The position numbers were made by a program, and so were the translations under genes. Source: Schmidtea nova (taxonomy: Eukaryota). Taken from it: 64,000 nucleotides of DNA. Shown piece by piece: positions 1 through 50,476 of this stretch (its first letter is position 1; every line of letters begins with the position of its first letter). The notes under the pieces are model-generated. The model made no database searches. It was not told the DNA's origin and saw only the letters and a list, made by a program, of their open reading frames with translations. The stretch spans positions 368,714,001 to 368,778,000 of the forward strand of contig CM097882.1 in NCBI GenBank assembly GCA_044892505.1, in the 5' to 3' direction.

Positions 1-3000
1 GGTGTTTGCTTACATAATTGGATAACATTCGAATCAATGTGCCGTTAAATCTTTCCGTTTGTCCATTGGTTTGCGGATGATATGGTGACGTTCGTAATTT
101 GGCTATTCTGAAGTAATTTGTTACTTCATCTAATATTTCACTCATAAAATTTGTCCCTTGATCTGTCAGTATTTGTTTCGGGGTTCCGTATCGACAACAT
201 ATTTCCTCTACTAAAATTCTTGCTACGGTCTTTGCTTTTTGATCCGGCATCGCAAATGCTTCAGGGAATTTAGTCAAATAATCCGTTATTACCAATATAT
301 ATTGATTCCCGTTTAAACTTTCTGGCAATGGTCCTATTACATCCATCGCAATGGTAGTCATTGGTTCCGCTGGTATTGGCATGGGTTTTAAGGGATTTTT
401 CCATTTCTTCCCACTATCCTTTCTTGTGGCACAAGTTAAACAGTTCTTTATCCATTCCTTTACGTCTTCGTCCATTGTTGGCCAATAATATTTTTGTCTC
501 ATGCGATCTAATGTTTTCTTATCGGACATGTGTCCTCCCAACTTTCCGTCGTGGTATTGAGTTATTATCTCTTTTCGTCTATTACCTGGCAGACACATTA
601 ATCGTTTTTCTCCATCCTGTATTAATAACCATCCTTTTTCTATTGTGTATCGATGTTGGTATTTCCTCATGTGTTCTTTTAACTCCGCATTGTCTTTGAA
701 TACATCCATATTCCGTGAGCTTAGGAATTCTATGATGGGTCTTAGTTCTTTATCCTCTTGCTGATCTTTCTTTAACTCGCTGAAATCCAAATCCTCTGCT
801 ATCATTATGCATATTCTTTGCACTTCTGGGTCTGTTAATTCTGGAAACGTTAATCTTGACATGCAATCTGCGTTGGCATTCGCTTTTCCTGATTTGAATT
901 TTATATCTGGTGAATATTCTTGTAATTGCATCGCCCATCTCATTAATCTGCTGGATGTTTCCTTATGTTGTCCTAGCCATACCAGTGGTTGATGATCCGT
1001 GGTTATGCATATAATGTGTCCCCATAATAGATATTTAAAGTGTTTTATTGCTAATATTATTGCCAATGCTTCTCTCTCCGTTACTGAATAATTCTTCTCG
1101 TGTTTCTTGAATGTTCTGCTATAATATCCGATCACTCGTTCTTTACCTTCGTCATCATATTGTCCTAACACTGCTCCTGCTGCATATCCACTTGCGTCAG
1201 TCGCGAGTAAGAACGGCTTCTTGAAATTCGGGTGAACCAATATTGGTGCAGTTATTAGCTTATCTCTCAATGTTTCAAAGGCTGTTTGTTGTTCGCTTCC
1301 CCATATGAACGATACGTCTTTCTTTACTAGCTCCTGGATTGGTTTTGCAATTCCTGCGTAATCCTTTATGAATTTTCTATAGTAACCGCATAATCCGAGA
1401 AATTCTTGGATCTGCGTTATAGTCTTTGGTATTGGACATTCTTTTACTTTATCAATGTTTCTGGGATCCGGTTCCTTTCCTTTTGCGGACACAATATGTC
1501 CTAAGAATGTCACTTTCTCTTTTGCCCAATCACATTTCGATGGTTTGAGCTTGAGTTTCCATTGTCTCAATCTCACAAATACATCTCTGATATCTTGGAT
1601 GTGTTGTTCAAATGTGCCTGAATATATTAACAGATCGTCGATGTAAACCATGCATTGTTTTATGCCGTGGGTGACAAAATTCATACATCTTTGAAATGAT
1701 GCTGGCGCATTGGTTAGTCCAAATGGCATTTTCCTAAATTGGTACAAGTCTCTTCCGATAGTGAAAGCAGTTTTCTCTTTGTCTTCCTCCTTCATTTTAA
1801 TTTGCCAGTATCCGCTTTTCAAATCCAATGATGTAAAATATGCCGCTCCTTGTAATGTCAATAACATCTCGTTGATGTCCGGTAATGGGTAGGTATCCCT
1901 TTTTGTAACTGCATTTAATCTCCGATAATCAATACAAAATCGTTGTGTTCCGTCTTTCTTTTTCACCATTACAACTGGGAATTGCCACGGTGAGCAGCTT
2001 GGTTCAATTACTTCTGCGTCTAGCATTTTCTGTACCTCTGCTTCTGCTACTGATTTTTGCGCTTCGGCTAACTTGTATGGTCTTAACGCAATCGGCGTTT
2101 CGTCTGTTAGTGGAATCGTATGTAGTGTGACGTCGCATGTCCCTAGATCTAAATCGGATGCTGCGAATATGTCTTTATATTCTATCAGTAGTCTTTCTAG
2201 CTGTTTCTTTTGATCCTCATTCAATAGTTGGCTATCAATGTTCCAAGTGGGTTCTTCCTCTTTTACTCCTTCTTCTATTGGTATTTCGATATCTATCATT
2301 GGAGTTAGTTTACCCAATCTTTCATTTTCATAAATTATTTTATCCTCTTCATCGAAATTTACTACATTTATTGGGATTTCTCCGTTGTCATTCGCACTCA
2401 CTAATCCCCTTGCCATTGGCAACGACTTTCTCTTTTCAAATCTTTTACTGGGTTCAAAGATCATGTCACCTTCTAAGGTAGGGTCTATTTTTACGAAGCA
2501 TATTTTCTCTCTCCGTGCTGGTACGATTATTTGTTTCGAACTTGTTACTTTTGCTTCTATTGCGCATATCTGTCCTGTCCTATCCTTTAATCTCATTGTT
2601 CCGAGGTCAATAACTATTTCTTTAAATAATGCTGGCATCAGATCCGTGCCTATAATGCATGGTACGCTCAGTGCTGGTATTACTGCTACGTACGTTTCGA
2701 TTTCCGTGTTTTGATGTTTTATCTTTACCCACCATCTTCCAGCAACTTCTACTACTTCTTTACTGCATGCTATTACGTGAACGTTGGTTCTCTCAATATC
2801 CCGTCTTTGTTCTTGTGGTATCCATTTTATATCTATTGCTGAGATATTTGCTCCTGTATCAATCATCGCTTCGATTTCCCTTCCGTTAATTTCGATTGTT
2901 GTAGTTAATACTGGACCGGTGTTTGATGACATTACTGCAATTGTATGTGAGTCTCCTTGCGGATCTACGCTTCTGCACCGTCTCGTTCTATAGTCTTCCG

Positions 3001-3148
3001 GTATCATAGGATATATGTTTGTCATCGGCATCATTTGCATTGTATTTTGTTTCATCCCCGGTGTTGGTTCTTGGTACATGGTTGGTGGGGGTGCGTAACA
3101 CTTCCACATTTCGCTGGATTCTTTTCGACGTACTGTGGTACTTGATTT
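1..3148 (-). CDS. pol: Pol of element A: aspartic protease, RT, RNase H, integrase (open to window edge, so absent from ORF track)
   Basis: Manual translation: AMIDTGA (DTG 2852-2860), VYIDD (~1635-1646), LATDASG (~1190-1210), YHDGKLGGH..CLTC integrase zinc finger, IAMD, LTDQGTNF, QTNGQTERFN. Frame opens after TAA at 3149-3151. Confidence 0.93.
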
Positions 3149-6100
3149 TTAAATACTTGACCTCCTTCGTTATCATCATCATCGTCGTCACTGGAATCGT
3201 CTTGGGTTCTGTACCCTTTCATTCTTTCCCATAGTCCTTTTCTCTCTTTCTTTAGTTGTTGTCTTGCTTGCTCGTTGTTCATTATCTTTTTAAATTTTCG
3301 TCCCACCTCTTCATCGGTTCCTTTCATTTTTGCCAGTATTTTTAGGAGTCTCTTTATTCGGTGAATATCTTTTGAATGACCGTGTAATACCATTGTTTTT
3401 GCCAAAAATGGTAAGAATCCTACCACCAATTTCCAATTTATTTTCTTTTCTCTTTTATAGATGTCAAAACAGGCTAACATTTGAGTTATTATTACCCGTA
3501 TTATTTGTATAATTAGTATAACACCAAGTATTCCTGCCATCATTTGTCCAAATATTAAAAATCTTCCCCACATCGCTTTCATCATGTTCTCCGTTGCCTT
3601 CTTAAAGTGGGCTGGTGACAATAATAATTCGTAATTTGGTCCACCTTGGTAATTTGTTCCTCCTGTTATTGTTACAATGCTGGATAACACCGCTTCCCTT
3701 CTTGCTGGAAATAGTATATTTTGTCTCGCTGCCTCTAAGTCTTTTGCGCTATAGAATCCCATATTACTTACATCTACGTCTTTAAATTTTCGCCCTTTTG
3801 ATAGTTGCATCAATTCAAATTCCCTTGGTGCTGGTACCTCTGTTCTTGACGGAAACATAACCCAATTTCCGTCTGGTTTTTGGTATAGTGGTCCATATGC
3901 GTTGCTGCAATTGAAAGGATTTGGTTCGAAGCTTACTGGATTTATGATTCTTGTCACTGGTTGCACATATCTTACCTTCCCTTTGTATTCGATTTCTAGT
4001 TCGTTAGTACACTGCCCTGGTTGTAATTTTGTCATTGTCGCTACCTTCGCATTTGTCTTTTTACATATGTATACATACATGACTTCTCCGACTACCCTTC
4101 CAAAATGACCTTCTCTTAATGGTAATAGTGGCATTGCACTATCTGGGTTTGTGATTGCTACTGCTAGTTTTGTCTTTAATATTTCCCTATTTAACATACA
4201 ATCGTTATTTATTAAGTCGTAATACACTTTTTGTAGTGACGCTTGTCCTCTATGGAATAGAAAATCCATTTTATTGTTCATGTAAAGGTGTAACTTAACA
4301 TCATTCGTGTTTACTTTGCGTTTCGCACTAGGTACTTCTTGTTTTGATACGAAAATGCCGGGGTAGTTGGTTTCCAACATGGCTACTCCGCATTTCAAGG
4401 CTGTTTTTCCTTTTACAAACCTCATTCCGATATCTGCATCTGAGGTAATTAGTTCCGTTGGTGTATTTCTCATTTTGATTTGTTTTTCTTGTGTTCGGGT
4501 TTCAATCTTTTTCTCTCCTCGTACTGTGTCTTGAAGTATTTTTCCTCTTGCTGCCTCGTCTTCTTCTTCCTCTTGGAAGGTTTTCCCTTGTATCTCATCG
4601 AATTCTGCTTCCTTTAACAGTTGTAGTTGACATTCCTTTCCTCGTATCTGGTAGGTTAGGGTTGATATACCAGTCTGACAAGTGTTTGACTCGATTTTGC
4701 ACATAGGTAGAGTTTTCATTTCTCCCGTCGTTGGATCGAAGAATGCCTCGTACGTTTTTAGTTCCACTGTATAGGTATCTATTACCACTAGGTTTGTTGC
4801 TGCTACTCCGAATATTGGATATGTTGCTCCTTGGCAGTACCCTTCTCCTCCCGTAATAGCTCCTGCTACATAATATGTTTGTTGCAATATCACTCCCGTT
4901 TTTCCTCTTATCTTTATTCTATCTCTAGTCTCTACTTCCCCATGTTTAAATAATTTTTCACAGTCTTCTCCTTGCAGCATTACCGATTCTCTTTCCGTTC
5001 CTGGCATCACGATTGCTGAGTAATGGCGGTGTCCACAATAAAAAGCAAATCTGGTTTTATAAACTTTGCATTCTCTGACCATTGTTCTTATCAGTTCAGC
5101 TTCCTGATATACGTGATATAATTGTCTCTTTTTTAATGTTTTTAGCTCCGTTGGGGTTGCGTCTTTACATTGTTCTGTCCCTCGTAGTGAATATTTCTCA
5201 CCTAATGCCATTTGATCACAATCGAATACTTCAAATGCTGTTGCTCCGTCAGTACTAATCATCCATATTAACATCATCATAATAATAGAACTCAAGTTTA
5301 GTGATGATTTCCCGTTTCCTGTTCCCGACTTTTCCTTTTCCAATTCTCCCAATATCTCTTCGAATTTCCTTTTCATATTTTTGGCTTGGTTTTTCTTTTG
5401 GTTCGTTTTTGTGAATGTTTCCCATCCTCCTTTACTGATGATGTACGGTTCTATTTCCTTCTCTATAATTTTGGCTGTATTCTTTATATGTCTTTCAAGT
5501 GCTGTGGGTTTCAGTCGACCTCTACTCAGTGTCAGCAGATTGTAAATGGTGTATGCCATAGCTATTAAATATTTGTTATCCGTCTCTGCTCCTTCCGTTA
5601 ACTTCTTTATCAACATCGTGGTTCCTTGCCAATCTAGGTGGTTTGACCTTGTCTTCTCTTTTATCAGTTCTGGTAGGATTGGTGCGATGGCGCTATGCAG
5701 TGATTTCGCCCTTTCGCTTATTTCGTTTATTCTCCACCATTTCTTTAATTCTGGATCGATTATTGCCAGTATTTCCATTAACATCTTTGATATCCATTCT
5801 TCGCCTTGGTATGTTTGTGTTGTTTCTTTTTCTTTCGTTTCGGCTATTTTATTTAGTTTCTTTAGACACAACTCCCATTGATCCCGTCTTTTTTCCTCTC
5901 TTGATTTTATAACTACATTTGCTGGATCCATCTTGGGTCTACCTCTAGGTCGTTTATCCATTGTCGTGCCCGTTTCTACCAATCTTGTTTCTCGTCCAGT
6001 TTCTTCTGTGACGTCTCTTGGTTCGTTGGCTCTTTCTTCTAACCATCTTTCCATTTCTTGTGTGAATTGTACATTTTCTACATTTGCCCTCCTTGCTTCC

Positions 6101-7935
6101 TCTTCTGCTATTTCATTTACTTCTTCGATGATTATTTCTTGTTCAACTTCATCTTCGGTGTTGGTTACCGGTATTGCTGTTGGTAATTCTTGAATTCTTT
6201 CGAAAATATTATCATCTTTCTCTTTTGTTAGCTCTATTAACTCCTCTAACATATCATCGCTATCTGTAAAAATTTCGTCTACATCGTATGGTTCTGGTGG
6301 TGTTCTTTCTCTTGTCTCTCTTGGTGTTGTTCTAGCTTGTTCTGAGCTTGTTCCTGGAGTCATTACCGATTTCATTGGGCTCGGCGTACTCATACTTCCT
6401 TTTGGTTTCTTTTCCTCTTTCAATTTCAATGGTTGGCCTGCTATTGCTGCCACTGTCAATGTATTTGCGATATCTAATTGCGCTGGCGTTATTCCAATTT
6501 CCAAGCTGTTATCTAATGATCGTCCTTGGTGTTGTAAATGGAATGGTGGTTCATATCTCAATTTCTTTTTAATGTCCCGAACTTTCTCCGCTATCCCTAC
6601 CCAAAACTCTTCCTTTTCTTGGTTCGGATATACTATTCTTAGGTGTACTTTCTGTGGCGATTCCTGCGAGAATTCTTGGTTTCTCCATTTTTTAATTACG
6701 TGATCCAATTGTTCTGGACACCACTCGTTAACTCTTTTGTATTCGGCGATTGCTTTTGCTACTTTACGCAAGCATGTTATGTCTTCTCCATTAACTACGA
6801 AAAAATCTGCGAGACCTTTTACTACTTTTCTCTTGCCGTGCGCATTGGTTTTTAATATTTCGACAAATTCTTCCGTTTTTTGTTTTTCTCTTTCCAACCA
6901 CATGGTTGTCGTTTCTGGTCCGTCTAAATCTGCTGGCATGGCTTTTCTTGTTACCATACAGACTCTTCCGGTTTCCGGTTTGTGATCGTCTTCTATGCCT
7001 ATTCCGTATTCCTCTTCGTATTCGCCTGCTTTTGGTTCCCAACATTTTCCTCGTTCGTTCCATTGTTTTTCTACAGGTGTTGGTAATCGTCTGTTGAGAT
7101 TGAGTTCTTCTAATACGTCTTCCCATTCTGGCCAAATCCGCCAATTTCGATAAATGTCTACTATTTGTTGTAATTTATGCACAACTTCTTTTTGTCGTTC
7201 CCGTTCTCTTTTCTCATCTTTAGCAGTTTCTCTTGGTGTATCGTCCATTCTGATAACGTGGATGGTTTGGTGATTATCCCATATACCAATTTTATATAGC
7301 CGTCTTTCATCGTGATCCCATAATACATGTTCGTTGTATTTCATGATTATGTCATCTTCCCATTCTTCTTCTGGTTCTCTTTGTAATAGTGTCTCGTTGA
7401 TGACATTTACTAATTCTTTTATGGTACAATCTGCTAGTACTTCAATCTCTTTGGTATCTTCATTAGGCAATTCCACTGAAATTTTTAGATCTGTTATTTT
7501 TCCTTGTCTAAACATTGCTTTTCCCATTTTGGCAATTACCTTTCCGTATGAGATCTGTGACCATCTCGTGTGACTTGTGTCACGTATGCACTCGATACAT
7601 CGTTTCAACTTCTCGTATTCGCTTCTCATTAACTCCTTTCTATGTTTTTTGATTTGTGGGATGATTTGTTCTATCATGGAATTTAGATTTCCTCGTAAGA
7701 TTCGTCCTTTCTCATATTCTAACCGTGGTTTTATCTTCTTCTCGAAACACGTATTCGCTTCCTTTGCTACTTCTTGTAGGTTCTCTTCTCTCTTATCATC
7801 GTGTATCGATAATGTTGTCACCTCTCCTGGCCATATGCCTGTTTCTATCAAATGCGTCCTTTTCTTCACCAGTCCATTCTGTGAATATAGGAATTTGTTC
7901 TTATACGAACTCCCTAATCTGTCTTCTACCCATCG
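3052..7935 (-). CDS. Cargo/envelope polyprotein: two ubiquitin-like domains, AT-hook, Bcl-2-like domain, signal peptide, chuvirus-like glycoprotein, TM
   Basis: Ubl-like ~7245-7490 and ~6440-6650; KRPRGRPK 5932-5955; PYIISKGGWETF BH2-like ~5413-5448; hydrophobic segment then AFEVFDC; MNNKMDF..NDCMLNREILK..NPD..GEVMYVYIC glycoprotein motifs; TM ~3490-3565. In frame with gag across one TAG. Confidence 0.8.
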   Translation of the reverse strand, partial: RWVEDRLGSSYKNKFLYSQNGLVKKRTHLIETGIWPGEVTTLSIHDDKREENLQEVAKEANTCFEKKIKPRLEYEKGRILRGNLNSMIEQIIPQIKKHRKELMRSEYEKLKRCIECIRDTSHTRWSQISYGKVIAKMGKAMFRQGKITDLKISVELPNEDTKEIEVLADCTIKELVNVINETLLQREPEEEWEDDIIMKYNEHVLWDHDERRLYKIGIWDNHQTIHVIRMDDTPRETAKDEKRERERQKEVVHKLQQIVDIYRNWRIWPEWEDVLEELNLNRRLPTPVEKQWNERGKCWEPKAGEYEEEYGIGIEDDHKPETGRVCMVTRKAMPADLDGPETTTMWLEREKQKTEEFVEILKTNAHGKRKVVKGLADFFVVNGEDITCLRKVAKAIAEYKRVNEWCPEQLDHVIKKWRNQEFSQESPQKVHLRIVYPNQEKEEFWVGIAEKVRDIKKKLRYEPPFHLQHQGRSLDNSLEIGITPAQLDIANTLTVAAIAGQPLKLKEEKKPKGSMSTPSPMKSVMTPGTSSEQARTTPRETRERTPPEPYDVDEIFTDSDDMLEELIELTKEKDDNIFERIQELPTAIPVTNTEDEVEQEIIIEEVNEIAEEEARRANVENVQFTQEMERWLEERANEPRDVTEETGRETRLVETGTTMDKRPRGRPKMDPANVVIKSREEKRRDQWELCLKKLNKIAETKEKETTQTYQGEEWISKMLMEILAIIDPELKKWWRINEISERAKSLHSAIAPILPELIKEKTRSNHLDWQGTTMLIKKLTEGAETDNKYLIAMAYTIYNLLTLSRGRLKPTALERHIKNTAKIIEKEIEPYIISKGGWETFTKTNQKKNQAKNMKRKFEEILGELEKEKSGTGNGKSSLNLSSIIMMMLIWMISTDGATAFEVFDCDQMALGEKYSLRGTEQCKDATPTELKTLKKRQLYHVYQEAELIRTMVRECKVYKTRFAFYCGHRHYSAIVMPGTERESVMLQGEDCEKLFKHGEVETRDRIKIRGKTGVILQQTYYVAGAITGGEGYCQGATYPIFGVAATNLVVIDTYTVELKTYEAFFDPTTGEMKTLPMCKIESNTCQTGISTLTYQIRGKECQLQLLKEAEFDEIQGKTFQEEEEDEAARGKILQDTVRGEKKIETRTQEKQIKMRNTPTELITSDADIGMRFVKGKTALKCGVAMLETNYPGIFVSKQEVPSAKRKVNTNDVKLHLYMNNKMDFLFHRGQASLQKVYYDLINNDCMLNREILKTKLAVAITNPDSAMPLLPLREGHFGRVVGEVMYVYICKKTNAKVATMTKLQPGQCTNELEIEYKGKVRYVQPVTRIINPVSFEPNPFNCSNAYGPLYQKPDGNWVMFPSRTEVPAPREFELMQLSKGRKFKDVDVSNMGFYSAKDLEAARQNILFPARREAVLSSIVTITGGTNYQGGPNYELLLSPAHFKKATENMMKAMWGRFLIFGQMMAGILGVILIIQIIRVIITQMLACFDIYKREKKINWKLVVGFLPFLAKTMVLHGHSKDIHRIKRLLKILAKMKGTDEEVGRKFKKIMNNEQARQQLKKERKGLWERMKGYRTQDDSSDDDDDDNEGGQVFKNQVPQYVEKNPAKCGSVTHPHQPCTKNQHRG

Positions 7936-10707
7936 CTAAATATCTTCCGTGAGTGGAGTTTTGATCCAAATCCTTGGCAAACATGTTTTTATCTCTATTA
8001 GAATTATATATTCATGGAGTGGTTCTTTTAATAATTTTCCTACGTATTGGCTTAGTGTTTCTACTTCCCGGCCTGGTAACCACTCTTTATAGTTCATTTG
8101 TAATATCGCTCTCATGAATTTCCGATAGTGTTTCTTGTCAATGAATTCCTCATTATATATTACTTCTAGCGCGTTATCTAATAATTTCTGGATCTCGTCC
8201 TCTTTTACTTGAATACTTTCTGGTGTCTTTACTACTTCTATCTTTTTGTCCTCAATTTCCGGTTCGTCTAGCATGTCCCCTGCTAGACTACTGACGTCAC
8301 TATCCTCTTCGTCGTCTGAAAAATTCTTTGCCTGGCCTCTCAACATGTTAATGTGTTTTATTTGGTTGATTTCACTTGGTGGATTTTCTGTTGGTTTCGT
8401 TTCACTTTCGCTAGTTTTTTGTGTTGATTTACTCTCGTCGTCTACTACTTCGACTTTTCTCATTTTTCGTTCCAACTCATCTATTTCTCGCAACCGTCTT
8501 CGTATCATTTTCCCTTTAAATATTCGACTGATTCGTGTTTCGTGACGCACTGGCGATGGAATTCCTTCTGGTTCTATTTCCTTGATTACCATCACATTCC
8601 TTTTTGTCTCTACTACTCCCATGTTTTCCCATGTATCCGTTAGTTTCAATTTTACTTCTGGTGCACCTTCTATTTTTAGGAATGCTTCTCTGGGCAGTTT
8701 CGTTACTCCTGGAGCCATTTCATTCACTTTATTGAACAATATTTCTACTTCTTCCTTTATGTTATATTGGAATCGAAACACGTGCTTGTTTGGCAAAATT
8801 ACCATCATTCCTCTTTTCCCGAGTTTCCTTTTCTCTTCTTGGTTCCCTTCTTTTTCTACTTCCTTTTCTGTTTCTTTTTCTGCTTCTTCATCTTCTTGTA
8901 TTATCTCTTTTCGGCCTTCGTTGTTGGTTGGATTCGGGTTTGTTGGATTTATTTCTGGTACAGTCTCTTTCTCGTGGGTATTTGTTTGATTGGTTGCTCT
9001 CATCATATTAATTCTTAGAGGTTGTCGTTCTCTTTCTTGCTGTTTTTGTTCCTCTTCTCTTTGTATTCTTGCCCATTCCTGAGCATGTCGTGCTTGACTT
9101 TCCCGATTCAATCGTTCGTTTTCGCTTTCTATTTTTCTCATCATATTGATTTGTTGTTGACCTGTTTGCGGATTTCCTCTGGTTGTATTGTTTATCAGCT
9201 CCGTCAATCTTTGAACCTCTTGCATTAAATGTATCTCTTTAGTGGTATTTTTATTTTGGTTATTATTATTACTATTTGGTTGGTTTCCGTATTCCGGTTG
9301 GTTTCCATTATTTGGCTGATTTCCATAATTCTGTCGGTTTCCACCAGTTGGTTGGTTTCCATAGTTTTGTCGGTTTCCGGTATTCTGCCAGTTTCCTCGT
9401 TGATTGCTTCTTTGTCCGCAATTTCTTGATAGGTGTCCAGGCCGTCCACAATTAAAACAGGTTATTGTGTAACATCTGCTCTCTGAATGCCCTTTTACTC
9501 CACATTTTCCACAATTCAAGTTCTGATAACATTCTTGTTTCCAATGTCCCAATTTCCCACATGTTTTGCATTGTTTCGTTGGTCCTTGGGGGTTGTAATT
9601 GTTTTGATTTCCGTAATTTGATACTTTATTCCCTTCATTCCTTCGTTGCGGTGGTGGTCGGTTTAATTGTTGTGAATTTGGAATGTGGTTATTCAGGTTC
9701 ACTTCTTGTTCGTTTTGTGCTGTATCCATAGCTAAATAGATTCTACCATCATTTCCTATCATGTGTAGTTCAAATCTATTAGCTGTTTCTAGTGCTTGGT
9801 CGATGGTTTTACAACCTTGACATCCAACTTGCGCTCTTATGTCGGGTCTTCTTAATCCTCCCACAAAGATAGCTGCCATTAACTCCTCATTTATTGGGCT
9901 GTCTTGATTAAAGATCAACTTTGCTAACTTTTTCAATTCGCTTGCATATACCGCATTCGATTCATTTATCTTTTGTTTCCTCATTGAGAATTCCGTGAAT
10001 GCCTCATTCAATACTTTATTTATTCCAAAGGTTTGTTGGAAAAAGTCCTTTATCGCTGACCAACTTGTAGGTGGATTAGTTCCATTCTTTGCTTCCAAAT
10101 ATAGATCTAATGCGCTATCTTTCAAATATAGCTGAATTCTGCTTACAGTTGTTTCTGGTTTCCACTTGCATACTTCCACGAATATGCCAAATTCCTTTAA
10201 GAAAGTTTCTAATTTACTCGCATCTCCATTAAACGGTTCTCCGGAAAATTTGTCTTTTATCTCTTCTCTTGGTTCACTCATTTCGATTCCGCTGTCTGTA
10301 GTTATTTTACTTTCGTTTCCTCTTGTTTCTAGTTCACTGTTAGGTTCGTCACTTGAATTTCGGTCGATCTCAGTTTCCTTTGCTGATTCGTTATCTGATG
10401 CTTTACTATCGTTATCGGTATCGTCACTTTCTGTTTCTTGTTCTACTTCGTCTTCTATTTCTTCTATATAATCGTTGTTGGTTTTGTCGACTTCTATTTC
10501 ACTTATTGGGTTTCTCTCGGGTTCTGCTTGATTTTCTTTGTTGCTTGAACTGTTGCTTGTTACTGATAATTTATCGTTTTCGATAATCGACTTTTGTATT
10601 ATTATCTGCCTTGCTTTACTTCCTTTTGGGCCTTTCTGATTATTATTCTTGGTAGCTTTATTCTTTTCTGCTGGTTTTATTATGACACTCTTTTCTCCTT
10701 TTCTCAA
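7936..10707 (-). CDS. gag: Gag of element A (capsid, three CCHC zinc knuckles, N/Q-rich region, C-terminal Ubl-like segment)
   Basis: EPFNGD..FLKEF, LYLKDSALD, RKQKINE, FVGGLR capsid motifs; CKTCGKLGHWKQEC, CGKCGVKGHSESRC, CFNCGRPGHLSRNC. Confidence 0.92.
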   Translation of the reverse strand: MRKGEKSVIIKPAEKNKATKNNNQKGPKGSKARQIIIQKSIIENDKLSVTSNSSSNKENQAEPERNPISEIEVDKTNNDYIEEIEDEVEQETESDDTDNDSKASDNESAKETEIDRNSSDEPNSELETRGNESKITTDSGIEMSEPREEIKDKFSGEPFNGDASKLETFLKEFGIFVEVCKWKPETTVSRIQLYLKDSALDLYLEAKNGTNPPTSWSAIKDFFQQTFGINKVLNEAFTEFSMRKQKINESNAVYASELKKLAKLIFNQDSPINEELMAAIFVGGLRRPDIRAQVGCQGCKTIDQALETANRFELHMIGNDGRIYLAMDTAQNEQEVNLNNHIPNSQQLNRPPPQRRNEGNKVSNYGNQNNYNPQGPTKQCKTCGKLGHWKQECYQNLNCGKCGVKGHSESRCYTITCFNCGRPGHLSRNCGQRSNQRGNWQNTGNRQNYGNQPTGGNRQNYGNQPNNGNQPEYGNQPNSNNNNQNKNTTKEIHLMQEVQRLTELINNTTRGNPQTGQQQINMMRKIESENERLNRESQARHAQEWARIQREEEQKQQERERQPLRINMMRATNQTNTHEKETVPEINPTNPNPTNNEGRKEIIQEDEEAEKETEKEVEKEGNQEEKRKLGKRGMMVILPNKHVFRFQYNIKEEVEILFNKVNEMAPGVTKLPREAFLKIEGAPEVKLKLTDTWENMGVVETKRNVMVIKEIEPEGIPSPVRHETRISRIFKGKMIRRRLREIDELERKMRKVEVVDDESKSTQKTSESETKPTENPPSEINQIKHINMLRGQAKNFSDDEEDSDVSSLAGDMLDEPEIEDKKIEVVKTPESIQVKEDEIQKLLDNALEVIYNEEFIDKKHYRKFMRAILQMNYKEWLPGREVETLSQYVGKLLKEPLHEYIILIEIKTCLPRIWIKTPLTEDI

Positions 10708-11254
10708 CGGGATTACTTTTGTATACTCAATTTTCCTGTCTTATCGTATTCCGATTCTTTTCTTCCTTGGTTGATTGGTTTGGTTTGATTGATTTATCTA
10801 AAATACAAATGTCACTTCAACGATACTCTATTGTTATCGTTGCGCTTTTATTCCCTTTTTACGGGACTTCTCATTACTGGGTTTCTATTATTTTTCCCCA
10901 TTCCCAGATTCCCCTTTATTTAAGTCTATTTAAATTATCTATATACTAGTCACAATTATCTATTTAGTCATAACAATTATCTATCGGTTATTAAAATACA
11001 TCAATTATTTTTCCCGCGGTCTCCCAATTTATTTGTCGTTCGAACGCTCTAATTCCCTGAGTCATTTGACTCGATTATTATTTTATCATCTCTTTATCTT
11101 TCTCTCTGCTAGCCTCTAATTAATTCTGCCGGTCTTTCCGGTCAGCTCCTATTTCTCAATTCTACTTGCATGCATTATTTTAGGTCGCATAATCAGCTTT
11201 ACTCGCATTTCTCTATTATCGGTGCGCACTATTCTCATTATCGTCGACGATCAC

Positions 11255-11470
11255 AACTCTGGGCCTATATTCCCTCTGTTGTTATTTCTTATCACTTGCA
11301 ACCCTGGGCCTATATTCCCTCCGTTGCTACTCAAACGATTGTAACCTTGGGCTTATATTCCCTCCGTTACTATCTTCCTTTAATTTTAAATAATTGCAAC
11401 CCTGGGCCTATATTCCCTCCGTTGCTACTCAACAATTGTAACCCTGGGCCTATATTCCCTCCGTTACTAT
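11255..11470. repeat. Imperfect tandem repeat (core AACCCTGGGCCTATATTCCCTCCGTT), about 5 copies, in leader of element A
   Basis: Seen directly. Confidence 0.85.
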
Positions 11471-11484
11471 ATATCCGGATATCC

Positions 11485-11720
11485 CTATTGGCTCCTTTGG
11501 CCTCAAATTAATATCAATTATCTCAAATGGCTCTTATGGCCTCAAATTCATATCTTATTATCTCAAATGGCTCTATTGGCCTTAAATTCATATCTCAATT
11601 ATCTCAAATGGCTCTATTGGCCTTAAATCATATCTCAATTATCTCAAATGGCTCTATTGGCCTTAAATCGTATCTCTCAATAACGCCTAGCTAGGTCATT
11701 CAATATGGCTCTTTGGCCTC
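11485..11720. repeat. Imperfect tandem repeat (core TATCTCAAATGGCTCTATTGGCCTTAAAT) in leader of element A
   Basis: Seen directly, about 5-6 copies. Confidence 0.85.
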
Positions 11721-11995
11721 AACCCTTTGTTTCAAGGGACAAACCGCTGATAACCCTTTGTTTCAAGGGACAAATTCTAATAACCCTTTGTTTCAAGGGA
11801 CAAACCGCTGATAACCCTTTGTTTCAAGGGACAAATTCTAATAACCCTTTGTTTCAAGGGACAAACCGCTGATAACCCTTTGTTTCAAGGGACAAATTCT
11901 AATAACCCTTTGTTTCAAGGGACAAACCGCTGATAACCCTTTGTTTCAAGGGACAAATTCTAATAACCCTTTGTTTCAAGGGACAAACCGCTGAT
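11721..11995. repeat. Perfect alternating 31/30-bp hairpin repeat (ABABABABA)
   Basis: Constant AACCCTTTGTTTCAAGGGACAAA followed alternately by CCGCTGAT or TTCTAAT; 9 units. Confidence 0.95.
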
Positions 11996-12472: not shown

Positions 12473-12934
12473 TTATAAATAAACTACAATTCTATCAGCC
12501 ACAGAGAAATTGCACATGGGGCACTCATCACACTTATTCGCACAGTTTTTACAGAATCGAAAATGTCCGCATGGTAGAAACATTATTTGGATTTCACTGT
12601 CTTCGCATATGTAACATTGTTTATATTGTTTTGCTGCCTCGACCCCTTGCGACATCCATCGGTTATATGTTAGACTTAACTGCTGTTCTATATGTCGGCA
12701 TCTGATATTCAACTCGGCATCCTCTAATCGTGCTTTGTACCATTTATATCGCGTACTTATATCGAGTTTATTTACTTTCTCTATGATTTTTAATTACTCA
12801 GTTGTTTCCTCCGTTTGTGTCGTAGGTTCCTCATATTCGGATGCTCTTATTCGGGTTATTTTTTCGCAGACTGTCTCAAATGTATCGTTCTCGGTGTTAA
12901 AAAATTCTTCGATTTCTTTCAGTTTTTCCTCCAT
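12473..12934 (-). pseudogene. Coiled-coil plus C-terminal IAP-type RING-HC protein; one in-frame TAA at 12794-12796
   Basis: CYICED..IMFLPCGH..CKNC...CDECPMC...RIVVYL* at the extreme C-terminus; frame extends to ATG 12934 (MEEKLKEIEEF). Confidence 0.8.
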
Positions 12935-13256: not shown

Positions 13257-13801
13257 AATTTATGCTGGGATTATGGGTGGGTTTCAAGTAATTCAAATAA
13301 ATTATTAATCATTAATTGAACGACTATTGATGAGTACGTATACTAGGGATTCCACGCCCATAACCATACATAACATGACTACTACACGCGTATGCCCTTG
13401 ACTATTCCCTACTAGTCAAGTTGGTACTGCATACGGTGGTGGAAAAATGATGGGCAGGTGAGCTTTGTTGCCAAAACTACTCCCCATTTATCTTCCCTCG
13501 GGTCCTTGCTGCCGATAGAAGGTCTTACGCATTTTCATTCTATGGATGTTCGCCCTACTGAATTTTTTTATCACACGCCTTTCCCAATGACTTTCCTTAA
13601 TTTATCTACAATGTAATTAATCAGTCCCTGCGTATAAATGGTCGGTTTGAGAAAATTTCGGGTGCGATTTTTTTATTTCGATGATTTCATTGTTGTTATT
13701 TTATTTTATTTAGTAACATCCCCCGATGAGAGACAAAATTTACACAGAAATACTTTTATTAAAATACTAAAAACAGGATTGTTATTTTACATGGATGTTT
13801 C

Positions 13802-14386
13802 CTAAGCGAATTCCAGACTAATCTCCTGAATCAATTCCGCTTCGGTTAAGGAGTTCAAGTGGTGGATTTGTTCGTCCAGACGCTTCGCAAATTCTCGGCG
13901 ACGACGACGCTGTCGCGATCCCATTCGATGTTTTCGAAGCTGTTGGGTTATGACCGGTGCTGACGCTATTGTTCTCGGGGGATCACTGAGAAAAATAGGC
14001 AAATCTTCCGTTGTAAGAGAGGGGGCCAGGATGATTCCCTCTTCCGTCCCGCAAGCGACATCTTGGTGAGTGCATTGTATCCAGCGCTGAGCCGTGATCG
14101 GCCGGATTAGCGCTCGCAATTCGGAGTCGATGTAACTTCTTGTTACTGCATTTAGGCAATTTCGGAGTTCTCGCTGGACGGCATCTAGTTCCAATTTGGT
14201 TGCAGCCAGTGCTTCCTGCATTCGCTCAAGTTTTTTCGACTGGTCCTTCATTTGTTCGGGCGAGAACCACTTCGCTCTCAATTCATCATTGGCGACCGTG
14301 AGTCGCTTGATCTGTCGCTGCTGGTCCCTCAACTTCCTCTCTTGGATTTGTCCCATGATTTTCTTGGAATTTTCTGAAGTCGGCAT
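13802..14386 (-). CDS. Hypothetical 194-aa coiled-coil protein with Arg-rich motif (RQRRRRR), inside putative LTR
   Basis: ATG-initiated GC-richer ORF; AATAAA on minus strand at 13755-13760. Confidence 0.55.
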   Translation of the reverse strand: MPTSENSKKIMGQIQERKLRDQQRQIKRLTVANDELRAKWFSPEQMKDQSKKLERMQEALAATKLELDAVQRELRNCLNAVTRSYIDSELRALIRPITAQRWIQCTHQDVACGTEEGIILAPSLTTEDLPIFLSDPPRTIASAPVITQQLRKHRMGSRQRRRRREFAKRLDEQIHHLNSLTEAELIQEISLEFA

Positions 14387-14704
14387 GTTATCTGAATATT
14401 ATAACGATAAATTCGCTGGAGGACCTATCAACAATTCTATTTTATTTAGTCTACTATTTACTATTGTTAAACGAGATGCATATTAATGTTTTTAATTATT
14501 GAGTTCTCTACAAAATTATTTAACTATCTAATCATTGAAGACTCAAAAGATTTATTGAACTAATTTTATATTAATAAATGAATTTCCTAATGACTATAAC
14601 AACTACAATACTAAATCTACATGACAACACTATTAACAAAATGAGACACTTCCGAATTTTTAAAACATTTATTAAATTCAAAAAACAGGCGGCCATTGAT
14701 TCCG

Positions 14705-15172
14705 CTATTCATCTTCGGTCATTTTTCCTCGATATGAAAATATCGATCTGATTTGCAAATTTGTGTTGATATTGGACGAGGCCTGCTGAAAACGGATCCT
14801 CTCAGCTTCCCGAAGGGGTCGTATTGCTGTATTGAACTTGAACCCCAATTCCTTGAAGGTAGAGGCTGGAATGAACCCCCAATATATCACACATTTCGGG
14901 AATCCTCCCTTATCCAACATCAGGACGAACCAGGCGGCGTGCCATGATTCGAATTCCTCGTCTGGAATGATTGGCCAACTAGCGCATCCCCGGTACCATA
15001 CGTGATGCCGTGGATGGTCCCATACTGTAAAGGGACAGGCGGTTTCAAGCTCTCGGCGCCATGCCCACATTTTTTGATGGATTTGCTGTAAAATCTCGAA
15101 AGGAGCCGGCTTTAATGGGCTAACTCGGGCTCGTTCTTGTCGTTTTTTGATAGTGTATCTATGCTTAGTCAT
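14705..15172 (-). CDS. Hypothetical 155-aa Trp-rich protein inside putative LTR
   Basis: ATG-initiated GC-richer ORF; AATAAA on minus strand at 14668-14673. Confidence 0.5.
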   Translation of the reverse strand: MTKHRYTIKKRQERARVSPLKPAPFEILQQIHQKMWAWRRELETACPFTVWDHPRHHVWYRGCASWPIIPDEEFESWHAAWFVLMLDKGGFPKCVIYWGFIPASTFKELGFKFNTAIRPLREAERIRFQQASSNINTNLQIRSIFSYRGKMTEDE

Positions 15173-16096
15173 GATTCCAAAACGATGCTGAATTTTATAA
15201 TAGTTACAATTTACATCAATAATTAATTATAGTAAATGTTATCTCTCATCGTGATACCCTTATTATTTGCCTTCCCCTTAGACCTTAGCTGAAATCACGA
15301 GAAACTGTCGTTCGCTATGGTATGCATTACTCTCGTATCTACTTAGCTTTATCTGTTTACGATCACTATTATAGTTGAAAAAAAAAAAAAATGGTGATTT
15401 GTCTGCTTGGATTTTCAAAATATTGATACCTCAAAACGGAAGCTCTCTCACGTCATGTATCCCTAGCTTATTCGAAAAACGCTCCTTTGTATCAAATGCG
15501 GTCGACATAATTTTCCTAAGGTTTATTAGACGTTTATTAAACAGCTGCGCTGTGGTGAGGGTGAAAAATTGTGCCTCCTCCCGGTTAACAAATTCTTTCA
15601 TATCTTTAAGCTTTATCAAAAAATTATCGTCCCCTCTGTAGCTAAAATGATCGGAAAATAATTCCCCGGATTTGTTGGGTGTCCCATGTGCAAGTCTCAA
15701 CCACTACTAATAAAATTAGGTTTTGCTATTTATTACTTTACCGTGTGTGGAGCCCTCGAGCACCACGCCACGGACGGACACCTTGGGAACCTAAAGCTCC
15801 CAACGGCGCGAGATTAATATGATAGATTAAACAGTTTAAATACGACATAAATCAAAATGAGATGAATAATATATTATAATATGATAATGACATATGAATA
15901 CAACATCAAATAATGTACCAAAAATACCTCAATTGAATTCTGAAAATTTATTGATCAAAATCGGTCTAAACGGTGATCGTCGTCGGGGCAATGTGCAATC
16001 TAATGCGAATTTTTAGTTAAAGTCTAAATTTCAGTCTAACAAAGTCTACTGAAGTCTCACTCTAGTCAAACGTCTCAGTCTGATTTTATGAAAAAT

Positions 16097-16120
16097 CTGA
16101 TCAGTATTTATACTGATCAG
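16097..16120 (-). promoter_or_regulatory. TATA box (TATAAATA) embedded in inverted repeat CTGATCAGTA..TACTGATCAG; candidate LTR promoter
   Basis: Seen directly, ~400 bp inside the proposed LTR start. Confidence 0.5.
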
Positions 16121-16633
16121 TCGTGTCTAGACCGACCAATCAGGTTCGGCCATTTTCAGGGTGGTTTTTAATTATTGTTCTTGATTCTAATTAATTTTTA
16201 TTTTTTAGATTGTATTCTTCCTCGGAGGTCTGGGTTTCAAAAACAATTATTCAATAACAAGTACTTTTATTTTGTTTTAATTACCATTATTTGTATTTAT
16301 TTTGTTTTTTAGATGTCTCCTGGGCCAGTTAATATCTCGAAATTCCTCTATTTTTATTTATAGCTTGTACTTAGTTTGTCTATATTTTTATTATATTACT
16401 CCTTTCTTTTAATAAATAAATATTCCCCTTTTTATCTTATTTTTCTCTTTTTTGTTTTAATTAATCTACTTTTATTTCACTGTTCTCTCTATTTGGCTGG
16501 CCCAACAATTATTTTAATTTTATTATTAATTATTTATCATAATTATCTTTTTTCACCTTTGATCTTTTTTTATTATTATTATCAATAATTCTCATAATGA
16601 CTATAGATCAAAATTTTTTTTTTTTATAAACAA

Positions 16634-16671: not shown

Positions 16672-16767
16672 TTTCTATCGTTATATTTACTTAATCCTAA
16701 ATAGTAGCCTTAATTATTTTTTTAATATTTTATAATGATTTTATTGGATGAAAAAATTTATTTTATT

Positions 16768-47710: not shown

Positions 47711-50476
47711 TGCATTGCTACCCTTGATTAAATCTAATAATAATGTTATTATTACTATTACTGTGGAGGTTATCGATTTGTTTTCTGTTTTTGGTTTTAT
47801 TGTTGTTTTCTCTATTAATTGTTTTATTACTTTATCTGTATCACTTTCTTTGTTTGTCGTATCCTCATCATATAATATTTTCCATCCTCCTTTCATTTTT
47901 ATCCAGGGTATTGCTTCTACCTTCAATTTTTTATACATCATCGTTACCACGTTGTCTAATTGTCCTTTTGGATTTTCCTTTATAATTTTTTTGTATCTTG
48001 CAGCCAAGTATGCCATGGCCGTTATTATTCTATCTTTATCTATCCCTGTATTAAACAGGATCTTTAATACTGTTTTTTCATCTGCTTCTTCTGTGGCTAG
48101 TCTTTTGGTATCCTTTTTAATTAGTTTCATTTTTTCTGTTATGTTTTCTATGAGTACCGTTGGTCTTGTTTCTGGAAATAGCTTAATATTCATGACTTTT
48201 ATTATTTCTTTTATTTTATTTATGTCGTTGTTGTCATCTTGGTATTCTAGTGTTTCGTGTCTTTGTTTGTTTGCGATTTCTTTTAATCGTTCCGCTGTTT
48301 TTCTATTCTCCGATTTTTCTATTATTTCTGATTTTCGAGGTCTTCCTCTACCTCGTTTTGATGTTTCTGCATCTTTTGTTTTTGCTTCGTCAGCTATTCT
48401 TTCTATTGTTTCTTGTAAGTTACTATATTTTTCATCTATAGGTTTAAATATAATTTCTTCATCCCTTGCTGATTTCTTTGTTTCGCTAGGTGATTTATCC
48501 CATAGCCTAAATAATCTATCAAAATCGTTTTCTTCATTTATACTCAATTCAACCGACGGTACTGGCGTCACTATCTCATCGACCATTCGTTTTTCTATTG
48601 TGGCTACCACAATATTATCACTTACTGGGTTTATCCCATAATCGATTAAATACTCGTCACTCAATAATTCTATTCCGTTAAAATATAATTTTATTACATC
48701 TTTCTCTCCTATGGTTCCTGGCCATTTGGCTCTTACCGTTCGTTTTAATTTGCTCACTTTAGTGCAGGGATGTACCCTTTGTTTGTTTCTGGAAAAGTAG
48801 TTATCGTTTGATTCAATCGTTACATTTAGTGTTTCATGCAGTCTTTCATTTTTTCTTATATATTCTCCATAACATTTTAACATCTCTTTTATTTCTATTT
48901 CTAATTCAAATATTTTTGTTATATTTTGCCTCTTTACCATCATTGGTATCAAATTTCTAATCTTGTCTAATTCAATCCCATTAACCTGTATTTTATTGAT
49001 TATTCTCAGTGTTTCGTTATCATCAAATGGTTGTTTATACAATATCTCTTTAAATTCTTCTATCAATTCTTTTTGTTTATTTTCTTCGGTGAGAAATATT
49101 TCATCTGCTTCTCTAATTTCTTTTAACTCATCATTATCGATATCTACTTCATTTGTAAAAGTACTAAATTCATTTATAGACATTTCAAGCTTTCTCTCAA
49201 TAAGTCTTCCATATTGCGTTTTAAATTCTTTTAATTCTTCTCTTAATATGTTTATTTCTTTATTTGCTGATTCAAGCTCAGCGCTATTTACCTGCTTTAT
49301 CTCAGGCTCATTTTTAAATCTTACTCTTATCGGTGAATCTGCTCGTGGTTTATTACATACCTTTGCTAGGTGACCATACTTTTGGCAATTGTAACATTTT
49401 ATTTGTCCATTAAAATTCACTTTATCCCTACCCTCATTATTATAAGTATTTCGCCTCACTGGGCTATCTTGTCTATTTCTCGAATTATCTCTATATCTAT
49501 TATCTCTTCTATTATATTCGAAGCGACTATCTCTATTATTTCTATTATATCCACTGTAACTGTTATAACCAGAACGATTATCTCTAAAATTATCTCTGTT
49601 GTCTTTATCATTATTTCTGTCAAAACGATTGTCTCTAAAACTATCTCTATTATTATTCCCTTTATAGTTATCTTTAAAATTATCTCTATTTCTATTATCA
49701 AAATTTTTATTTCCTGAACTGTTAAACCTTCCCTTGTTTTCAGGTGATTGGCTTCTATTAGGACTAAATTTTCTTCTATTATTAACAAAATTCAAATATA
49801 ATTGTTTCATTTCTTCCCAAGGGATACTATCATCTTTATTTTTCAACTCAGGTTTTACCTCAAGTTGCTTTTCAATTTCTACAGCGTCTATCTCTGGTCT
49901 AAATCGATCTCTTTGTATTGCTTCGATGCGTTTTGCTTTTTGTACTAATTCATTTAAGTCTTCATATTCAATCGTAATTAATGCTTTGTATAAATATTTT
50001 TGGATTCCGTTCCAAAACTGATCCTCGATTAACCTACTAGTGTGATCTCCTGCACCAAATGCCTTTTTTGCTAATTCTGTTATCGTGTATATATATTCAC
50101 CTACTGATTCTCTTGCTCCTTGGTATCTACTTCTAAATTTTTGACCATTTATTTTTTGTAAGTCTCTATCTATTACTATTTCTTTTCTAAGGTTTGTCTC
50201 TAACTCTTGATAATTAATGCCTTTACATGCTAAATTATTGTATGCTTGTAATGCATATCCTTTTAAATATAATGGAATTCGTTGTTTTAATTCATTTGTT
50301 TTCCATCCGCAAGCCTCTGCATATTGTGCGATTTCGGCAAAAAAGTCGTCGAACTTTTCAGGGTCTCCTTTATATGATTCTATTGGTAGTGTTTTTATAA
50401 AATTATGATTACTGTTGATGTTGTCTGTATTGCTGTTACTTCCACTATTATTGCTGCCTGTACTATTATTACTCAT
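47642..50476 (-). CDS. gag: Gag (one CCHC) - Ubl - AT-hook - Bcl-2-like - signal peptide of element B
   Basis: IPLYLKGYA, RYQGARESV, CYNCQKYGHLAKVC; IKLYFNGIELLSDEYLIDYGI; KRGRGRPRK; LFNTGIDKDRIITAMAY and PWIKMKGGW. Confidence 0.88.
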   Translation of the reverse strand: MSNNSTGSNNSGSNSNTDNINSNHNFIKTLPIESYKGDPEKFDDFFAEIAQYAEACGWKTNELKQRIPLYLKGYALQAYNNLACKGINYQELETNLRKEIVIDRDLQKINGQKFRSRYQGARESVGEYIYTITELAKKAFGAGDHTSRLIEDQFWNGIQKYLYKALITIEYEDLNELVQKAKRIEAIQRDRFRPEIDAVEIEKQLEVKPELKNKDDSIPWEEMKQLYLNFVNNRRKFSPNRSQSPENKGRFNSSGNKNFDNRNRDNFKDNYKGNNNRDSFRDNRFDRNNDKDNRDNFRDNRSGYNSYSGYNRNNRDSRFEYNRRDNRYRDNSRNRQDSPVRRNTYNNEGRDKVNFNGQIKCYNCQKYGHLAKVCNKPRADSPIRVRFKNEPEIKQVNSAELESANKEINILREELKEFKTQYGRLIERKLEMSINEFSTFTNEVDIDNDELKEIREADEIFLTEENKQKELIEEFKEILYKQPFDDNETLRIINKIQVNGIELDKIRNLIPMMVKRQNITKIFELEIEIKEMLKCYGEYIRKNERLHETLNVTIESNDNYFSRNKQRVHPCTKVSKLKRTVRAKWPGTIGEKDVIKLYFNGIELLSDEYLIDYGINPVSDNIVVATIEKRMVDEIVTPVPSVELSINEENDFDRLFRLWDKSPSETKKSARDEEIIFKPIDEKYSNLQETIERIADEAKTKDAETSKRGRGRPRKSEIIEKSENRKTAERLKEIANKQRHETLEYQDDNNDINKIKEIIKVMNIKLFPETRPTVLIENITEKMKLIKKDTKRLATEEADEKTVLKILFNTGIDKDRIITAMAYLAARYKKIIKENPKGQLDNVVTMMYKKLKVEAIPWIKMKGGWKILYDEDTTNKESDTDKVIKQLIEKTTIKPKTENKSITSTVIVIITLLLDLIKGSNAIIAYDCQNPKWGQKYSLLDVEN

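What the first reader, a model, noticed from the sequence alone, without database searches (positions are those of the whole stretch)
5410..5810. Bcl-2-like domain in element A directly upstream of the glycoprotein signal peptide
Seen: helical ~130-aa segment ending EIEPYIISKGGWETF, with KKLTEGAETDNKYLIAMAY at BH1 spacing. Known: BH2 consensus is W/Y-I-x-x-x-GGW; large DNA viruses use vBcl-2 to block apoptosis. Inference: a retroelement-borne death modulator. The next hydrophobic stretch could double as the Bcl-2 tail anchor and the G signal peptide.
Basis: partly seen in the sequence, partly recalled or inferred. Interest (0 to 1): 0.88.

Follow-up and report, generated by a model that had tools for sequence, protein, structure and literature searches.

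The report
Burro retrotransposon's Bcl-2-like domain, already described
A giant, virus-like jumping gene carries a strongly diverged copy of the cell-death regulator Bcl-2 just in front of its envelope protein, where it would likely be tethered to a membrane; this arrangement is real but has already been reported for the planarian Burro elements, and its function is untested.

Summary
The segment is real (- strand, 5808-5413). It lies in a 28.4-kb gypsy LTR element with near-identical LTRs, ordered Gag, Bcl-2-like, signal, gB/chuvirus-type Env, PR-RT-RH-IN, ankyrin. Alone it barely matches Pfam Bcl-2 (13.7 bits, cut-off 31.4). Homology is supported by a ladder of sister elements at the same position (25.8 and 34.5 bits), an element-only profile hitting Bcl-xL at 1.8e-7, Bcl-2 proteins heading most fold searches (weak scores; one search was non-specific), GGW in 38 of 39 copies and dN/dS 0.04-0.06. 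BH2 is kept; BH1 NWGR reads TDNK. The downstream hydrophobic stretch looks like a cleavable Env signal that would tether the domain to the ER, perhaps only transiently. Anti-death activity is untested. The BCL2-Env-PR order and a 5,140-aa ORF, the length of 24 of 81 close copies here, are already published for planarian Burro elements (PMC6431247). This scan has also noted it on other DNA. Verdict: real, already known, interest 0.25.

The parts
5413..5808 (-). Bcl-2-like helical domain (about 132 aa) inside the element's polyprotein frame
   Evidence: Pfam PF00452 13.7 bits, E 0.094; HHalign to 8 host-like Bcl-2 genes of G000 prob 66.9, E 5e-5; to element B/C domains prob 84.9, E 6e-6; AF2 model with 7 helices and fold searches
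5707..5730 (-). Degenerate BH3-position helix (INEISERA); lacks the Leu, Gly and Asp of the recalled LxxxGD pattern
   Evidence: Aligns with IENITEKM (element B) and ADNIGNQI (L070); BH3 pattern recalled
5551..5583 (-). BH1-equivalent segment TDNKYLIAMAY; NWGR replaced by TDNK
   Evidence: Alignment with host-like genes and elements B (DKDR) and C (NWDR)
5413..5457 (-). BH2 motif EIEPYIISKGGWETF
   Evidence: Pfam match to profile positions 70-100; GGW in 38 of 39 copies
5302..5412 (-). Charged linker between BH2 and the hydrophobic stretch
   Evidence: dN/dS 0.06-0.12
5236..5301 (-). Predicted internal Env signal sequence and possible C-terminal anchor of the Gag...Bcl-2 precursor; predicted cleavage after A-T-A
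   Evidence: Kyte-Doolittle 15-aa window 2.07, 19-aa window 1.47; small residues at -3/-1 before the Env start in A, A', B and C; inferred, no signal-peptide predictor was available
3055..5235 (-). Env: gB/chuvirus-type fusion glycoprotein, with a C-terminal transmembrane helix at about 3543-3487
   Evidence: PF24664 Monjiviricetes_fusion E 1.3e-69; hydropathy 2.57
7936..10740 (-). Gag part (CCHC knuckles); ends at an in-frame TAG at 7938-7936 in this copy, in the same frame as the downstream ORF
   Evidence: 24 of 81 closest copies have a 5,140-aa open frame through the domain
2..3148 (-). PR-RT-RNase H-integrase, in another frame than Env in this copy; runs off the window into integrase C-terminus and ankyrin repeats
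12476..12793 (-). IAP-type C3HC4 RING remnant of an accessory ORF between the 5' LTR and gag
   Evidence: PF13920 E 3.1e-12
13260..16507 (-). 5' LTR (3,248 bp); its partner lies outside the window at G000:C1:368702079-368705327
   Evidence: 1 mismatch and 1 gap between the LTRs, 4-bp ATTA target-site duplication, element 28,429 bp
47864..48256 (-). Bcl-2-like domain of the window's second element (B) at the same position before the Env signal
   Evidence: Pfam PF00452 25.8 bits, E 1.6e-5; 21% identical to the A domain

Best explanation
This is a divergent Bcl-2-family domain built into the single giant polyprotein of a Burro-type gypsy retrotransposon, 40 residues before the envelope glycoprotein's predicted signal sequence, which would likely tether it to the cytosolic face of the ER where it probably dampens host cell-death signalling. 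Shown: homology, position, purifying selection and a single 5,140-aa ORF in sister copies. Inferred steps: (1) The polyprotein is threaded like a flavivirus-type polyprotein (analogy recalled): Gag...Bcl-2 cytosolic, signal crosses the ER membrane, Env lumenal, the Env TM returns PR-RT-IN to the cytosol. (2) Signal peptidase cuts after A-T-A and leaves the Bcl-2 domain with a C-terminal membrane stub in tail-anchor orientation; the element's protease would free its N-terminus. (3) The domain acts, with the element's IAP-type RING and TRAF cargo, to keep the expressing cell alive, probably by a non-canonical contact because BH1 NWGR is lost. Rough odds: fold and homology about 0.93, ER tethering about 0.7, anti-death role about 0.55.
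For: Homology ladder at the same polyprotein position: A 13.7 bits, B 25.8, L070 34.5, above the 31.4 cut-off. HHalign A-B/C 84.9%, B/C-host 96.1%, A-host 66.9%. A profile built from 5 element sequences only hits Bcl-xL at 1.8e-7, and all 60 rows shown are Bcl-xL/Bcl-2. Element-only AF2 model: 36 of 41 Foldseek rows shown are Bcl-2 family. Model with host rows in the alignment (pLDDT 74): 45 of 45 Foldseek rows shown and the top 13 VIA rows are Bcl-2 family. dN/dS 0.04-0.06 against 7 of the 15 fetched A' copies. One N-terminal hydrophobic stretch plus one Env TM restores Pol to the cytosol. The element also carries an IAP-type RING and a TRAF-type Zn-finger/MATH ORF. A review passage reports that Burro1's B-IAP protects stem cells from caspase-mediated apoptosis (PMC13465017; second-hand).
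Against: No significant hit for the A domain alone: PDB sequences 0 at E<=10, 1.84-billion-protein library 0, A' copy no Pfam hit. No Foldseek match reached E<=0.001. The element-only model has pLDDT 52, and VIA gave non-specific helical bundles, with 1 of 50 rows Bcl-2. The better model was steered by 7 host Bcl-2 rows, and its best Z of 8.1 (rmsd 3.9, 118 aligned) is under the tool's bar of about 13 for helical bundles. BH1 Trp/Gly and canonical BH3 are absent in A. Purifying selection is not specific: the linkers are also constrained (0.06-0.17), dS is near saturation, and the bootstrap intervals overlap (0.02-0.10 vs 0.08-0.22). The 19-aa hydropathy of 1.47 is low for a stable anchor. No functional data for this domain were found.
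Confidence: 0.55

Rival explanations
1. The Bcl-2 fold has been repurposed as a structural membrane tether or matrix-like module. It links the Gag precursor to the membrane where Env is inserted, in the way a foamy-virus Env leader couples capsid to envelope (analogy recalled), with no death-regulating role left.
For: Its position next to the Env signal is fixed across families only about 20% identical. BH2 and the C-terminal helices are kept while the BH1 and BH3 binding residues decay from NWDR (L070) to DKDR (B) to TDNK (A).
Against: Host-like Bcl-2 genes in the same genome are also degenerate at BH1 (Gly in 2 of 8, Trp in 7 of 8), and viral Bcl-2 proteins can lack BH motifs (PMC7022251 passage), so motif loss does not show loss of death function. 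The element carries other death and ubiquitin cargo.
Confidence: 0.2
2. It is a Bcl-2-fold innate-immune or ER-signalling modulator that works outside the BH3 groove, like poxviral A52-type proteins (function recalled), perhaps together with the element's TRAF ORF. It would be released from the membrane by intramembrane cleavage of the signal remnant.
For: Loss of the BH1 and BH3 motifs; short signal-like hydrophobic stretch; TRAF Zn-finger/MATH ORF within the element; A52 appears among the VIA rows (rank 25, Z 5.9).
Against: BH2 GGW is strongly kept, which ties it to cellular Bcl-2 proteins; the VIA ranking does not separate subfamilies (rows within 1 Z are tied).
Confidence: 0.17
3. It is not Bcl-2-derived: a generic helical segment with a chance GGW.
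For: No significant stand-alone hit; low-confidence element-only model and non-specific VIA rows.
Against: Domains at the same position in elements B and C reach or approach the Pfam cut-off and link to A by profile comparison. Both GGW motifs in the window sit at this position.
Confidence: 0.05

Closest known systems
Burro/GYPSM1 giant gypsy-like LTR retrotransposons of dugesiid planarians (PMC6431247 section 7, read in full; Jurka 2007 and Grohme et al. 2018 seen only as cited there)
   Same: Size about 28 kb; single Gag-...-BCL2-like-Env-PR-RT-RH-IN polyprotein with Env in frame between BCL2 and PR; Env related to mononegavirus-type fusion glycoproteins; ankyrin repeats; MATH/TRAF in an accessory ORF; 5,140-aa ORF in 24 of 81 close copies, the same length as the published Burro-like ORF1.
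   Different: Here the TRAF/MATH ORF lies downstream of pol (L071:3366-4772) and an IAP RING remnant lies upstream of gag, whereas the paper calls the MATH ORF upstream. The section does not discuss BH-motif state, selection or the signal/anchor topology. No sequence-level comparison with published Burro was possible.
Burro1 B-IAP (Lee et al. 2026, Dev Cell; paper not held, known only from passages of PMC13465017)
   Same: A Burro element carrying anti-apoptotic cargo; this element has an IAP-type RING remnant at 12476-12793.
   Different: The reported function is assigned to the BIR/RING ORF, not to the Bcl-2-like domain, so far as the citing passage says.
Cellular and viral Bcl-2 family (Bcl-xL, Mcl-1, KSHV Bcl-2, Hydra Bcl-2-4, adintovirus Bcl2)
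   Same: BH2 motif, BH1-to-BH2 spacing, predicted helical bundle, C-terminal hydrophobic stretch.
   Different: Embedded in a polyprotein; BH1 NWGR replaced by TDNK; no canonical BH3; a 40-aa linker and a cleavable-signal-like stretch instead of a terminal tail anchor.
GAG-ENV-POL errantiviruses with HSV/gB-type Env in Platyhelminthes, Nematoda and Bryozoa (PMC13524379, passages)
   Same: Gene order and glycoprotein type.
   Different: That paper's main text has 0 occurrences of 'Bcl'; supplements not read.

Membership tests
Bcl-2 family | Pfam PF00452 score above the curated cut-off (31.4 bits) | tested here: not met
   13.7 bits for A; element B 25.8; L070 34.5 passes
Bcl-2 family | Detectable homology by profile methods | tested here: met
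   HHalign A-host E 5e-5, A-B/C E 6e-6, B/C-host E 3e-9; element-only profile against Bcl-xL E 1.8e-7
Bcl-2 family | BH2 motif (W/Y-I-x3-GGW) | tested here: met
   YIISKGGW; GGW in 38 of 39 copies, L052 has GRW
Bcl-2 family | BH1 NWGR motif (recalled consensus) | tested here: not met
   TDNK at the aligned position. Not decisive for the family: BH motifs may be absent in viral members, and only 2 of 8 host-like genes keep the Gly
Bcl-2 family | Bcl-2 helical-bundle fold | tested here: inconclusive
   Leaning yes. Bcl-2 proteins dominate, but no Foldseek E<=0.001, best Z 8.1; the second model was steered by host rows; one search was non-specific
Bcl-2 family | C-terminal transmembrane anchor | tested here: inconclusive
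   Hydrophobic stretch 43 aa after the start of GGW, 15-aa KD 2.07, 19-aa KD 1.47, followed by A-T-A and the Env ectodomain
Pro-survival Bcl-2 proteins | BH3-peptide binding and inhibition of Bax/Bak | not testable with these tools
   Needs bench assays; no host BH3 peptide was found in 11 host-like loci, so no complex prediction was run
Pro-apoptotic Bax/Bak | Canonical BH3 (LxxxGD, recalled) | tested here: not met
   INEISERA at that position
Burro/GYPSM1 giant gypsy elements | Giant LTR element (internal region up to 25 kb) | tested here: met
   28,429 bp with 3.25-kb LTRs
Burro/GYPSM1 giant gypsy elements | Single ORF of about 5,000 aa: Gag-BCL2-Env-PR-RT-RH-IN with ankyrin repeats | tested here: met
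   Domain order; 34 of 81 close copies have an open frame of at least 5,000 aa and 24 have exactly 5,140; this copy is interrupted
Burro/GYPSM1 giant gypsy elements | MATH/TRAF and IAP (BIR/RING) cargo | tested here: met
   MATH E 5e-21 and TRAF Zn finger; RING E 3e-12; no BIR domain seen among the ORFs scanned
Burro/GYPSM1 giant gypsy elements | RT phylogeny or sequence identity with published Burro elements | not tested

The most novel reading that the evidence does not exclude
The element uses one hydrophobic helix twice, as Env signal and as tail anchor, and has turned a captured Bcl-2 fold into a membrane module that couples its Gag precursor to the Env-bearing ER membrane, or remodels that membrane, for particle budding. 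It would be a Bcl-2 protein repurposed as a viral matrix. The series NWDR, DKDR, TDNK across three element families would record the loss of the death-binding groove. I found no such statement in the searches, but Grohme 2018 and Lee 2026 could not be read.
Probability: 0.15. Interest if true: 0.7.

Novelty: already known. Interest (0 to 1): 0.25.

Why it matters
If the domain is anti-apoptotic, a retrotransposon would carry two independent death blockers (Bcl-2-like and IAP), as large DNA viruses do, which bears on how these elements persist in planarian-type stem cells. The domain's presence and position are published. What this work adds is modest: evidence of purifying selection, a graded loss of BH1 across three element families in one genome, and a testable topology (ER-tethered through the Env signal).

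Tried and rejected
Stand-alone searches with the A domain found nothing: PDB sequences 0 at E<=10 and 1.84 billion representatives 0 at E<=0.001. Word-indexed searches among longer proteins scored 0 of 496 candidates (A) and 0 of 1,252 (B); this is weak evidence. The ESM Atlas could not be reached on 4 tries. The own genome cannot be searched with an alignment, so intermediate element families were not collected. VIA on the element-only model was non-specific. The tree of 9 element and 7 host-like domains did not resolve a donor or a single origin (support 14/0, long branches; the one-clade test did not run). Sequencing runs: no RNA holder listed, so splicing and expression were not examined and no reads were laid. 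No host BH3 peptide was found in 11 host-like loci, so no complex was predicted. Grohme 2018 and Lee 2026 are not held. No supplements were read; those of Grohme 2018, Lee 2026 and PMC13524379 may already describe this domain in more detail. Rejected: a stand-alone host Bcl-2 gene (it lies inside an LTR element with at least 150 scored copies); a Bax/Bak-like killer (no canonical BH3); mitochondrial tail-anchoring as the default (the stretch is followed by a lumenal glycoprotein).

Full report
Observation. The quoted residues are present on the - strand in the open frame 7935..3052. The helical segment runs from QGEEW (5808) to GGWETF (5430-5413). A charged linker follows, then a hydrophobic stretch at 5301-5236 ending in A-T-A, then FEVFDC, the start of a glycoprotein matching PF24664 at E 1.3e-69. 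GGW occurs 2 times in 127,996 six-frame positions of the window, both times in the form [WY]I-x3-GGW and both 40-43 aa before the Env signal of the two envelope-bearing elements.

The element. Gag with CCHC knuckles (10740-7936) lies upstream, and PR-RT-RNase H-integrase (3148-2) downstream. Beyond the window edge come ankyrin repeats and a separate TRAF Zn-finger/MATH ORF. An IAP-type RING remnant lies between the 5' LTR and gag. The LTRs (window 13260-16507 and G000:C1:368702079-368705327) differ by 1 mismatch and 1 gap, with a 4-bp ATTA target-site duplication; the element is 28,429 bp, so it is a young insertion. The domain has at least 150 scored matches in G000 (150 of 1,012 candidates scored), in two groups of about 94-100% and about 85% identity. 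Of the 81 closest, 34 lie in open frames of at least 5,000 aa and 24 in frames of exactly 5,140 aa. This copy is interrupted by an in-frame TAG at 7938-7936 and a frame change near 3050-3150, so it would not itself make the domain as part of a full polyprotein.

Is it Bcl-2? Alone the evidence is weak: Pfam 13.7 bits against a cut-off of 31.4, no PDB sequence hit, no hit among 1.84 billion representatives, and no Pfam hit for an 85%-identical copy. The case rests on relatives. A genome-wide PF00452 search gave 150 scored matches (of 1,679 candidates). Of the 30 loci fetched, 14 were host-like genes or fragments and 16 were element-borne domains, most with the Env signal directly behind in frame. 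The window's element B scores 25.8 bits and a third family (L070) 34.5 bits, above the cut-off. HHalign links A to B/C (prob 84.9, E 6e-6), B/C to 8 host-like genes (96.1, E 3e-9) and A directly to the host-like set (66.9, E 5e-5). A profile of 5 element sequences, with no host rows, finds Bcl-xL at 1.8e-7, and all 60 rows shown of 183 are Bcl-xL/Bcl-2; 3 of its 5 rows are B/C type.

Fold. The element-only AlphaFold model is poor (pLDDT 52). Foldseek still lists Bcl-2 family chains in 36 of 41 rows shown (best E 0.14), but VIA gave non-specific bundles (1 of 50 rows Bcl-2). With 7 host-like rows added, the model reaches pLDDT 74 and pTM 0.74. All 45 Foldseek rows shown are then Bcl-2 family (best E 0.053), the top viral row is an adintovirus Bcl2 (E 0.35), and the top 13 VIA rows are Bcl-2 family (best Z 8.1, rmsd 3.9, 118 aligned; 26 of 50 rows have the Bcl-2 fold). 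That second model is biased by its alignment and below the tool's bar for helical bundles, so it shows compatibility, not proof.

Motifs and selection. GGW is kept in 38 of 39 copies examined (20 near-identical copies including this one, plus 19 chosen lower in the list; L052 has GRW). These copies were selected by similarity, so the stronger point is its retention across families about 20% identical. The BH1-to-BH2 spacing matches (52 against 51 residues), but NWGR aligns to NWDR in L070, DKDR in B and TDNK in A. The BH3-position helix (INEISERA) lacks the recalled LxxxGD signature. Host-like genes are also degenerate at BH1 (Gly in 2 of 8, Trp in 7 of 8), and BH motifs may be absent in viral Bcl-2 proteins (PMC7022251 passages), so loss of groove function is not shown. 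Against 7 of the 15 fetched 85%-group copies, dN/dS in the domain is 0.04-0.06, against 0.12-0.17 in the upstream linker; dS is near saturation and the bootstrap intervals for one pair overlap. A tree could not identify a donor.

Mechanism. In a single ORF, one hydrophobic stretch before Env and one Env TM (hydropathy 2.57) would place Gag...Bcl-2 in the cytosol, Env in the ER lumen and Pol back in the cytosol (inference; flavivirus-type analogy recalled). The first stretch has a short core (15-aa KD 2.07, 19-aa 1.47) and small residues at -3 and -1 before the Env start in all families seen, as expected for a signal-peptidase site (rule recalled). I judge an anti-death role the most likely single function, given the IAP and TRAF cargo and the reported B-IAP activity of Burro1 (PMC13465017 passages, second-hand). 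A structural tether role or non-groove signalling are live rivals.

Comparison with what is known. [quoted passage not shown] PMC13524379 (passages) reports GAG-ENV-POL elements with gB-type Env in Platyhelminthes and does not mention Bcl in its main text. The host is therefore probably a dugesiid planarian (inference). I had reached the Burro reading before consulting earlier scan notes; several of those agree, from other DNA, and are not independent evidence. Grohme 2018, Jurka 2007 and Lee 2026 were not seen. The searches (listings only, apart from the papers named) found no statement of the signal/anchor dual use or a functional test of this domain.

Verdict. A real, conserved, divergent Bcl-2-like domain in a Burro-type element; already known; function open. 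Interest 0.25.

Noticed in passing
L071:3366-4772 (-), G000:C1 just left of the window: Intronless TRAF-like ORF (RING-like N-terminus, TRAF Zn finger, MATH E 5e-21) inside element A, between pol and the 3' LTR, followed by two ORFs (361 and 197 aa) without a significant Pfam match.
   Followed up: partly
L071:5322-9998 (-): Pol continues about 1,500 aa past the integrase core and includes ankyrin repeats.
   Followed up: partly
window 13805-15703 (-): The 3.25-kb LTR itself holds open frames of 198, 173 and 90 aa without a significant Pfam match, duplicated in the other LTR.
   Followed up: no
window 13235-13259 and LTR ends: On the element strand the LTR reads TG...TAA rather than TG...CA, and the sequence after the 5' LTR resembles a tRNA-Pro primer-binding site (resemblance recalled, not tested).
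   Followed up: no
window 39873-50608 (-): Second GAG-(Bcl-2-like)-ENV-POL element (B) of a smaller family whose copies have ORFs of about 3,060 aa; broken into several frames here. It shares an RGRP AT-hook-like motif upstream of the Bcl-2-like domain with element A.
   Followed up: partly
window 16535-21446: Two RT-bearing ORFs (562 and 869 aa) in a perfect 1,787-nt inverted arrangement directly beside the 5' LTR; Penelope-like by appearance, untested.
   Followed up: no
window 22100-39100: Cluster of ORFs on both strands (ATPase-like P-loop at 29101, integrase-like and polymerase-like frames) with 238-nt inverted similarity at 22820-23057/38803-39040; Polinton/Maverick-like by appearance, untested.
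   Followed up: no
L021-L029, L032, L040, L042, L046, L049: At least 14 host-like Bcl-2 loci in G000, most with degenerate BH1. In 6 of 11 checked, a GT follows directly after the GGW codons, suggesting an intron before the TM exon, unlike the intronless element copies.
   Followed up: partly
window 11237-12025: Tandem repeat arrays (about 43-55, 40 and 61-nt units) in the leader between the RING remnant and gag.
   Followed up: no
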